From a virus: a DNA stretch of 64,000 bases. Location: the IMG/VR virus record IMGVR_UViG_2599185214_000003; one strand, 5' to 3'. The translations under genes and the position numbers were made by a program. The notes beneath the pieces were generated by a model, which was not told where the DNA came from, made no database searches, and was given only the letters and a program-made list of their open reading frames with translations. Of this stretch, positions 42,280-42,520 are shown one piece after another (within the stretch, counting starts at the first letter, position 1; every line of letters begins with the position of its first letter).

Positions 42280-42310
42280 AAAAAAGCCCGCTCGGGCGAA
42301 CCCGGCGGGC
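42280..42310 (-). terminator. Intrinsic terminator
   Basis: GCCCGC-CGGG-TTCG-CCCG-A-GCGGGC-TTTTTT. Confidence 0.85.
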
Positions 42311-42520
42311 GAATCACCCGCAAGGTAGCAGGCGAGGAGACAACTGTCCGGCGAAAGCGCCGGGGGTTCGGTCCATCTGACTACGCACGCAATGCGCGCT
42401 GGACCGTGCGGTTCTCGTCCCACCCTGCATCCCCTGGGACAAGCAGGGGGAAATATCCGGAGTGGCTTACCCCCCACTCCAACGTCAGGGCTGACGCCGT
42501 GTTCGGGGTCCGTGATCGGC
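42280..42520 (-). ncRNA. Putative ~240-nt structured late RNA
   Basis: Lies between promoter copy 7 and a terminator, has at least five hairpins and no credible ORF. Confidence 0.6.

What the first reader, a model, noticed from the sequence alone, without database searches (positions are those of the whole stretch)
42280..42520. Stand-alone ~240-nt structured late RNA with its own promoter and terminator
Seen on minus: promoter copy 7 starts transcription near 42520. Hairpins follow: CGTCAG/CTGACG, GGAGTGG/CCACTCC, CCCCTG/CAGGGG, GGTCCA/TGGACC (enclosing GCGC..GCGT) and CCGGCG/CGCCGG. ATCAC near the 5' end can pair with GTGAT just before a UUCG terminator. No SD-led ORF fits. Inference: a dedicated phage ncRNA. 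Its position just upstream of the terminase genes raises a packaging or anti-defence decoy role. Some loops read as GNRA on the plus strand, so strand needs testing.
Basis: partly seen in the sequence, partly recalled or inferred. Interest (0 to 1): 0.65.

Follow-up and report, generated by a model that had tools for sequence, protein, structure and literature searches.

The report
Phage RNA gene ending in anti-ribosome-site sRNA
A prophage carries a real, conserved non-coding RNA gene of about 240 bases: a newly seen folded 175-base domain joined to a short tail that resembles a known bacterial small RNA that blocks ribosome-binding sites, so the phage probably uses it to silence translation of selected genes late in infection.

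Summary
Between 42569 and 42279 (minus strand) lies a self-contained unit with three parts. First, a phage-specific promoter-like motif, one of 7 copies on the minus strand. Second, a 175-nt structured domain. Third, a 65-nt 'double-hairpin' module ending in an intrinsic terminator.

Twelve distinct related proviral contigs carry the domain. In them 97.8% of predicted pairs form and 8 pairs show compensatory changes, against at most 2 in slid controls. G·U pairs and the terminator fix the strand as minus. No reading frame is conserved.

The 3' module matches Rfam RF02278 (Betaproteobacteria toxic sRNA; Burkholderia double-hairpin RNAs, Bordetella S17S) below threshold (32 bits, cut-off 50). 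It shares that family's unpaired seed UGUCUCCUC. The module is portable: in relatives it follows a tRNA-Met, a bare leader, or tRNA-Met plus the domain.

The domain matches no Rfam family and its role is unknown.

One new lead: the seed is an 8-nt perfect complement of the ribosome-binding site of the phage's own winged-helix regulator gene (43895). The one phage with a changed seed has the matching change in that site.

The packaging or decoy idea has no support. This scan had already flagged the same RNA family in another genome (e1-5909725).

The parts
42553..42569 (-). Promoter-like box 1, CCCCCTGTAGGGGTTCG (probable activator site)
   Evidence: 7 copies on the minus strand, all upstream of genes or RNA genes. 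Conserved before the tRNA, this RNA and TerS in relatives.
42528..42533 (-). -10-like hexamer GAACAT, 24 nt after box 1; inferred start of transcription about 42520-42522
   Evidence: A GAAnAn hexamer lies 23-24 nt after GGG in the window's motif copies and in relatives (read directly). No sigma-70 consensus promoter is found in 41500-43500. The start site is inferred, not shown.
42344..42519 (-). 175-nt structured 5' domain (model R1): leader with invariant CCCCGA, helices H1, H2, H3, H3b, H4 (outer and inner) and H5
   Evidence: cmsearch 202 bits. 12 members, 97.8% of cells paired, 8 compensatory pairs, 0 of 500 shuffles as good. No Rfam match.
42333..42346 (-). Unpaired seed CAGUUGUCUCCUCG (CU-rich, anti-Shine-Dalgarno); probable RNase E processing site at its 5' edge
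   Evidence: Nearly invariant in all 12 members (one has A for U in CAGUU). Unpaired in every fold. Its first 9 nt equal the RF02278 consensus.
42314..42335 (-). Hairpin 1 of the sRNA module
   Evidence: Position kept while sequence differs between lineages, so the stem is maintained by different sequences.
42280..42310 (-). Intrinsic terminator (hairpin 2 plus U run)
   Evidence: Terminator scan; folds.
43896..43912 (-). Candidate target: ribosome-binding site (AACGAGGAGAACAAUCG) of the 186-aa winged-helix regulator gene 43335-43895
   Evidence: 8-nt perfect complement to the seed. Same block in the relatives examined. Compensated change in L308/L002. N-terminal wHTH fold.

Best explanation
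This is an independent late RNA gene. Host RNA polymerase, directed by a phage regulator to the CCCCCTGTAGGG motif, would start near 42520 and stop at the terminator at 42280, giving a transcript of about 240 nt. Its 3' 65 nt form a double-hairpin small RNA of the toxic-sRNA/S17 kind. A single-stranded CU-rich seed (UUGUCUCCUCG) pairs with Shine-Dalgarno regions and blocks translation. By analogy with Bordetella S17L to S17S and Burkholderia ncS27, RNase E probably cuts at the invariant CAG/UUGU junction and releases the short form. The 175-nt 5' domain would be a stable, phage-specific accessory part: a precursor body, a protein-binding scaffold, or a separate RNA. Likely targets are host mRNAs with GAGGAGA-type sites and the phage's own winged-helix regulator gene at 43895. 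Shown here: conservation, structure, strand, boundaries and seed identity. Inferred: transcription, processing and targets.
For: Conserved unit in 12 contigs with covariation. Strand is minus. Terminator found. Seven copies of the motif, shared with TerS and the tRNA. RF02278 is the only Rfam match in the 601-nt search with E below 0.01 (32.2 bits, E 1.3e-4; E 3.3e-6 in the whole record). The seed is unpaired and followed by two hairpins in every member. The module also follows a tRNA-Met (L002), a bare leader (L024), a tRNA plus spacer (L038), or a tRNA-Met plus the domain (L294). Literature: RF02278 RNAs pair their CU-rich stretches with ribosome-binding sites, and ncS27 is processed to a short form (PMC5688073). 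S17L (190 nt) is cut by RNase E to S17S (67 nt), which represses through Site 1 (PMC11722255). The seed is complementary to the regulator's ribosome-binding site, with one compensated change.
Against: No expression data. The Rfam score is below the gathering cut-off, and hairpin 1 lacks the second CU-rich site typical of the family. The regulator's binding-site block is also kept in a related phage with no module (G407), so it may simply be a strong Shine-Dalgarno sequence. The model gives the 175-nt domain no specific job. One member (L037) has lost about 35 nt of the domain, and five complete related proviruses lack it.
Confidence: 0.55

Rival explanations
1. The 175-nt domain is the functional RNA: a new class that binds or titrates a protein (for example CsrA/RsmA-like, Hfq or a nuclease) or acts as a decoy. 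On this view the tsRNA-like module is mainly a portable terminator cassette that these phages place behind RNA genes.
For: The domain has covariation and invariant loop sequences: GCCC in the H1 loop, GGGG in the H2 loop, GAYGAGAA in the H3b loop and AGUCGGA in the H4 internal loop. These point to tertiary or protein contacts. The same module ends other RNA genes, including tRNA-Met. The phage encodes a CsrA-like protein, and two conserved GGA motifs are unpaired.
Against: The seed is as strictly conserved as any part of the domain, which a mere terminator would not need. The CsrA-like gene is missing from 2 of 5 RNA-bearing relatives searched and present in 1 of 5 lacking the domain. No similarity to any catalogued RNA.
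Confidence: 0.22
2. It is a cis-acting leader of the late operon, like the lambda PR'-tR' '6S' leader or an HK022 put-type antiterminator RNA. On this view the RNA has no trans role.
For: It sits between a late-type promoter and a strong terminator just upstream of packaging genes. The next gene (41634-42215) has no motif copy of its own, so it must be read by terminator read-through or from an unseen promoter.
Against: TerS has its own motif copy in the window and in relatives. The gene downstream of the unit differs among relatives or is absent (L041, L040). The same terminator module follows a tRNA.
Confidence: 0.1
3. It is not an RNA at all but a DNA-level site (pac, origin or recombination site) or a small protein-coding gene.
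For: Position next to the terminase genes. Long open frames exist on both strands in this GC-rich DNA.
Against: G·U-specific pairing on one strand. Indels not in multiples of three, and the open frames differ between members; two members have stops in all six frames. An intrinsic terminator and a promoter motif bound the unit.
Confidence: 0.03

Closest known systems
Betaproteobacteria toxic small RNA, Rfam RF02278 (Burkholderia cenocepacia double-hairpin RNAs ncS03/05/27/62, also called bdhR1)
   Same: 5' unpaired UGUCUCCUC seed, two hairpins with the second an intrinsic terminator, GAUUC-type linker, length about 65 nt. ncS27 also comes from a longer form (PMC5688073).
   Different: Scores 32 bits against a cut-off of 50. 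Hairpin 1 lacks the second CU-rich loop. It is phage-borne and fused behind a 175-nt structured domain or a tRNA, and is driven by a phage motif.
Bordetella pertussis S17 (S17L 190 nt, cut by RNase E to S17S 67 nt; PMC11722255)
   Same: Long primary transcript with the active short sRNA at its 3' end. The cut lies at the start of the CU-rich stretch. The sRNA represses by pairing at ribosome-binding sites.
   Different: S17 is a chromosomal gene with a sigma-A promoter.
tRNA-linked small RNAs cut from tRNA precursors (3' external transcribed spacers); recalled from general knowledge, not checked here
   Same: In relatives L002 and L294 the module lies directly 3' of a tRNA-Met in one transcription unit.
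   Different: In the window the tRNA place is taken by a non-tRNA structured domain.
Lambda late leader ('6S' RNA, PR' to tR'); recalled from general knowledge, not checked here
   Same: A short terminated transcript from a late promoter just ahead of late genes.
   Different: Here each late unit has its own promoter motif. The RNA is structured with covariation, carries an sRNA seed, and moves as a cassette.

Membership tests
Rfam RF02278 Betaproteobacteria toxic sRNA | Score at or above the curated gathering cut-off (50 bits) | tested here: not met
   32.2 bits in the window and 32.9 in L053. No phage copy passes. Even more canonical-looking viral copies (L006) are missed, so the model is narrow.
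Rfam RF02278 Betaproteobacteria toxic sRNA | Unpaired CU-rich 5' stretch complementary to ribosome-binding sites | tested here: met
   UGUCUCCUC equals consensus positions 1-9. It is unpaired in all folds.
Rfam RF02278 Betaproteobacteria toxic sRNA | Double-hairpin architecture, with the second hairpin a rho-independent terminator | tested here: met
Rfam RF02278 Betaproteobacteria toxic sRNA | Second CU-rich site in the loop of hairpin 1 | tested here: not met
   The loop is UACCUU in the window and CUCG in most relatives.
S17-type processed sRNA | Short form released from a longer transcript by RNase E; Hfq-dependent repression | not testable with these tools
   The architecture is compatible: a precursor of about 240 nt and an invariant CAG/UUGU junction. 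No expression data.
Late-operon leader or processive antiterminator RNA (lambda 6S, HK022 put) | Downstream late genes depend on this one promoter-leader | tested here: not met
   TerS and other late genes have their own motif copies. Downstream genes vary among relatives.
tRNA or tRNA-like RNA | Cloverleaf, or acceptor plus T arm, detected by ARAGORN or the Rfam tRNA model | tested here: not met
   The only tRNA is at 43297-43373. Nothing is found in 42279-42520.
CsrB/RsmZ-type protein sponge | Many GGA motifs in loops, and co-occurrence with the CsrA-type partner | tested here: inconclusive
   Only two conserved unpaired GGA motifs (H3b loop and H4 internal loop). The phage CsrA-like gene is present in 3 of 5 RNA-bearing relatives searched and 1 of 5 lacking the domain.

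The most novel reading that the evidence does not exclude
The 175-nt domain is a new class of structured phage RNA with a function of its own, possibly held together by loop-to-strand contacts between invariant C and G runs. The attached sRNA closes a feedback loop by pairing with the ribosome-binding site of the phage's winged-helix late regulator, so that late RNA output limits its own activator.
Probability: 0.25. Interest if true: 0.7.

Novelty: new variant of a known kind. Interest (0 to 1): 0.55.

Why it matters
Phage-encoded small RNAs are few and nearly all come from enterobacterial phages. No paper found in the held library describes a phage-borne relative of the toxic-sRNA/S17 family. 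That family is widespread in Betaproteobacteria. If the phage copy works like the host RNA, temperate phages of this group tap a conserved host translation-silencing network. They would do so with a portable cassette that can be hung behind tRNAs or other RNA genes. The seed-to-binding-site match in the phage's own regulator gives a direct, cheap test. The 175-nt domain is an uncatalogued structured RNA with a ready covariance model.

Tried and rejected
- **Rfam:** gathering and permissive runs on the window and on 14 loci found nothing for the domain.
- **Isolated phages:** blastn of the unit found no match. The closest isolates by portal protein are Pseudomonas phages including LKA5 and phiC725A, at about 63-65%.
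- **More members:** three pattern scans of viral contigs, one of metagenomes, nhmmer and five cmsearch runs were used. Only 12 distinct contigs carry the domain, and other pattern hits were chance.
- **Host genomes:** The host copy and host targets therefore remain untested.
not conserved.
- **Coding potential:** rejected.
- **Phage RNA polymerase as reader of the motif:** the 3127-aa ORF is a polyvalent ART/LPD protein, not a polymerase.
- **Duplex-energy ranking of all start regions:** uninformative in this GC-rich DNA.
- **Search for extra covarying column pairs (pseudoknots):** too few sequences, only noise.
- **CsrA-like co-occurrence:** not strict.

Full report
**Setting.** The window is most of a 66-kb IMG/VR provirus. 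Its packaging genes are TerS 40600-41580, TerL 38865-40616 and a P22-type portal 36510-38855, all on the minus strand. The nearest isolated phages by portal protein are Pseudomonas phages including LKA5 and phiC725A, at about 63-65% identity. The flagged stretch lies in a 360-nt gap. Upstream is a NinX-like ORF that ends at 42578. Downstream is a phrog_16834 gene that starts at 42215.

**Observation.** The minus-strand fold beats shuffles by z -3.9, against -2.4 for the plus strand. An intrinsic terminator is called at 42303-42284 with a U run. The motif CCCCCTGTAGGG occurs seven times in the window, always on the minus strand. It sits before the tRNA-Met, this RNA, TerS and four other late units. 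In related phages it occupies the same places. A GAAnAn hexamer follows the motif at 23-24 nt, read directly. That start is an inference. No sigma-70 consensus promoter exists in 41500-43500. The giant ORF of the phage is a polyvalent ART/LPD protein, not an RNA polymerase.

**Conservation and structure.**
- Loci fetched through TerS, the neighbouring genes and DNA patterns gave 12 distinct contigs with the element, at 68-91% identity.
- Similarity begins at the motif and ends at the U run. The genes on either side differ, so this is a cassette.
- A seven-helix model on a plain MAFFT alignment has 96.5% of cells paired and 7 pairs with changes on both sides. Slid controls give at most 2, and 0 of 500 shuffles do as well.
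- With the twelfth member, on a model-fitted alignment, the figures are 97.8% and 8 pairs.
- There are 42 G·U cells against 6 A·C cells, and only 88.1% of cells pair on the other strand. Together with the terminator, this fixes the strand as minus.
- Open frames differ between members, and two members have stops in all six frames.
- Five complete related proviruses lack the domain, and one member has an internal deletion. The domain is therefore an accessory part.

**The 3' module.** The permissive Rfam run gives one notable match: 42279-42342 to RF02278, at 32.2 bits and E 1.3e-4 (E 3.3e-6 in the whole record). This is below the cut-off of 50 bits. The first nine consensus bases, UGUCUCCUC, are identical. 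All members fold the same way: an unpaired 12-13-nt seed, a hairpin whose sequence differs between lineages, a 3-nt linker, and a terminator.

Published work describes this family as double-hairpin RNAs whose CU-rich stretches cover ribosome-binding sites. One member, ncS27, is processed from a longer form (PMC5688073). The Bordetella relative S17 is made as a 190-nt transcript. RNase E cuts it to a stable 67-nt form, which represses through its 5' Site 1 (PMC11722255). The phage RNA has the same layout.

Unlike the family norm, hairpin 1 has no second CU-rich loop. The module is also portable. It follows a tRNA-Met in L002, a bare leader in L024, a tRNA plus spacer in L038, and a tRNA-Met fused directly to the domain in L294.

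**A target lead.** Within the window, the only ribosome-binding site with an 8-nt perfect complement to the seed belongs to the 186-aa gene at 43895. This gene lies just upstream of the first late motif. Its product is predicted to start with a winged helix-turn-helix domain.
- The block CGAGGAGA is present at this site in every close relative examined, and is followed by AC in all but L053 and L300, although the surrounding leader varies.
- In the single phage whose seed reads …CCACG, the site reads GUGGAGAC, again an 8-nt perfect complement. Non-cognate combinations reach only 5-6 nt.
- That octamer occurs only three times in that 65-kb provirus.
- Against the idea, a related phage with no module keeps the standard site. 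This is one compensated event only, and the gene was picked after the fact. I rate this lead at about one in four to one in three.

**What the domain is.** It matches nothing in Rfam. It is not a tRNA. It does not depend on the phage's CsrA-like gene. Invariant loop sequences hint at tertiary or protein contacts, but twelve sequences are too few to test this.

**Limits.**
- There are no expression data.
- The host genome could not be reached, so I did not test the claim of an earlier scan note that the module copies the host's own sRNA.
- That note (e1-5909725) shows the scan met this RNA family before, in another genome. My reading of the module agrees with it and was reached from my own Rfam and fold results.

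**Verdict.** This is a real, conserved late RNA gene. Its tail is a phage-borne variant of a known anti-Shine-Dalgarno sRNA family. Its body is an uncatalogued structured RNA of unknown role.

Noticed in passing
L294:3979-4335 (IMGVR_UViG_2919462493_000002): One motif drives tRNA-Met, then the 175-nt domain with no gap, then the sRNA module. This is a three-part RNA operon. It shows that the domain does not need a primary 5' end.
   Followed up: partly
window 41580-41626 (-): Before TerS, the -10-like hexamer GAACAC lies in the loop of a 7-bp GC hairpin. The hairpin sits between a GGGAG and the ATG. The inferred start would give a leaderless or nearly leaderless TerS mRNA. The arrangement is conserved in relatives (L034, L041, L046).
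   Followed up: no
window 43335-43895 (-): A 186-aa protein (phrog_8117) predicted as an N-terminal winged helix-turn-helix, a small beta domain and a 50-residue helix. Its reading frame runs across the first late motif into the tRNA-Met gene.
   Followed up: partly
L315:1490-1560 (provirus G418): A more distant relative carries a different CU-rich element (…CCUCCCUGUCUCCUCCUUC…) followed by a terminator. CU-rich sRNA-like genes therefore seem common in this phage group.
   Followed up: no
L028:5159-5228: An anti-hemB sRNA match (Rfam RF02837) just above its gathering score, in a viral contig that also has a tsRNA-like module.
   Followed up: no
window 3488-12871 (-): A 3127-aa polyvalent protein with ART-PolyVal, LPD1 and LPD3 domains, preceded by a late motif copy at 12916.
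   Followed up: no
L308:5185-5250: A second seed-like stretch (AUAUGUCUCCGUUCU) lies about 35 nt upstream of another motif copy in the phage that has the variant seed. Its meaning is unclear.
   Followed up: no
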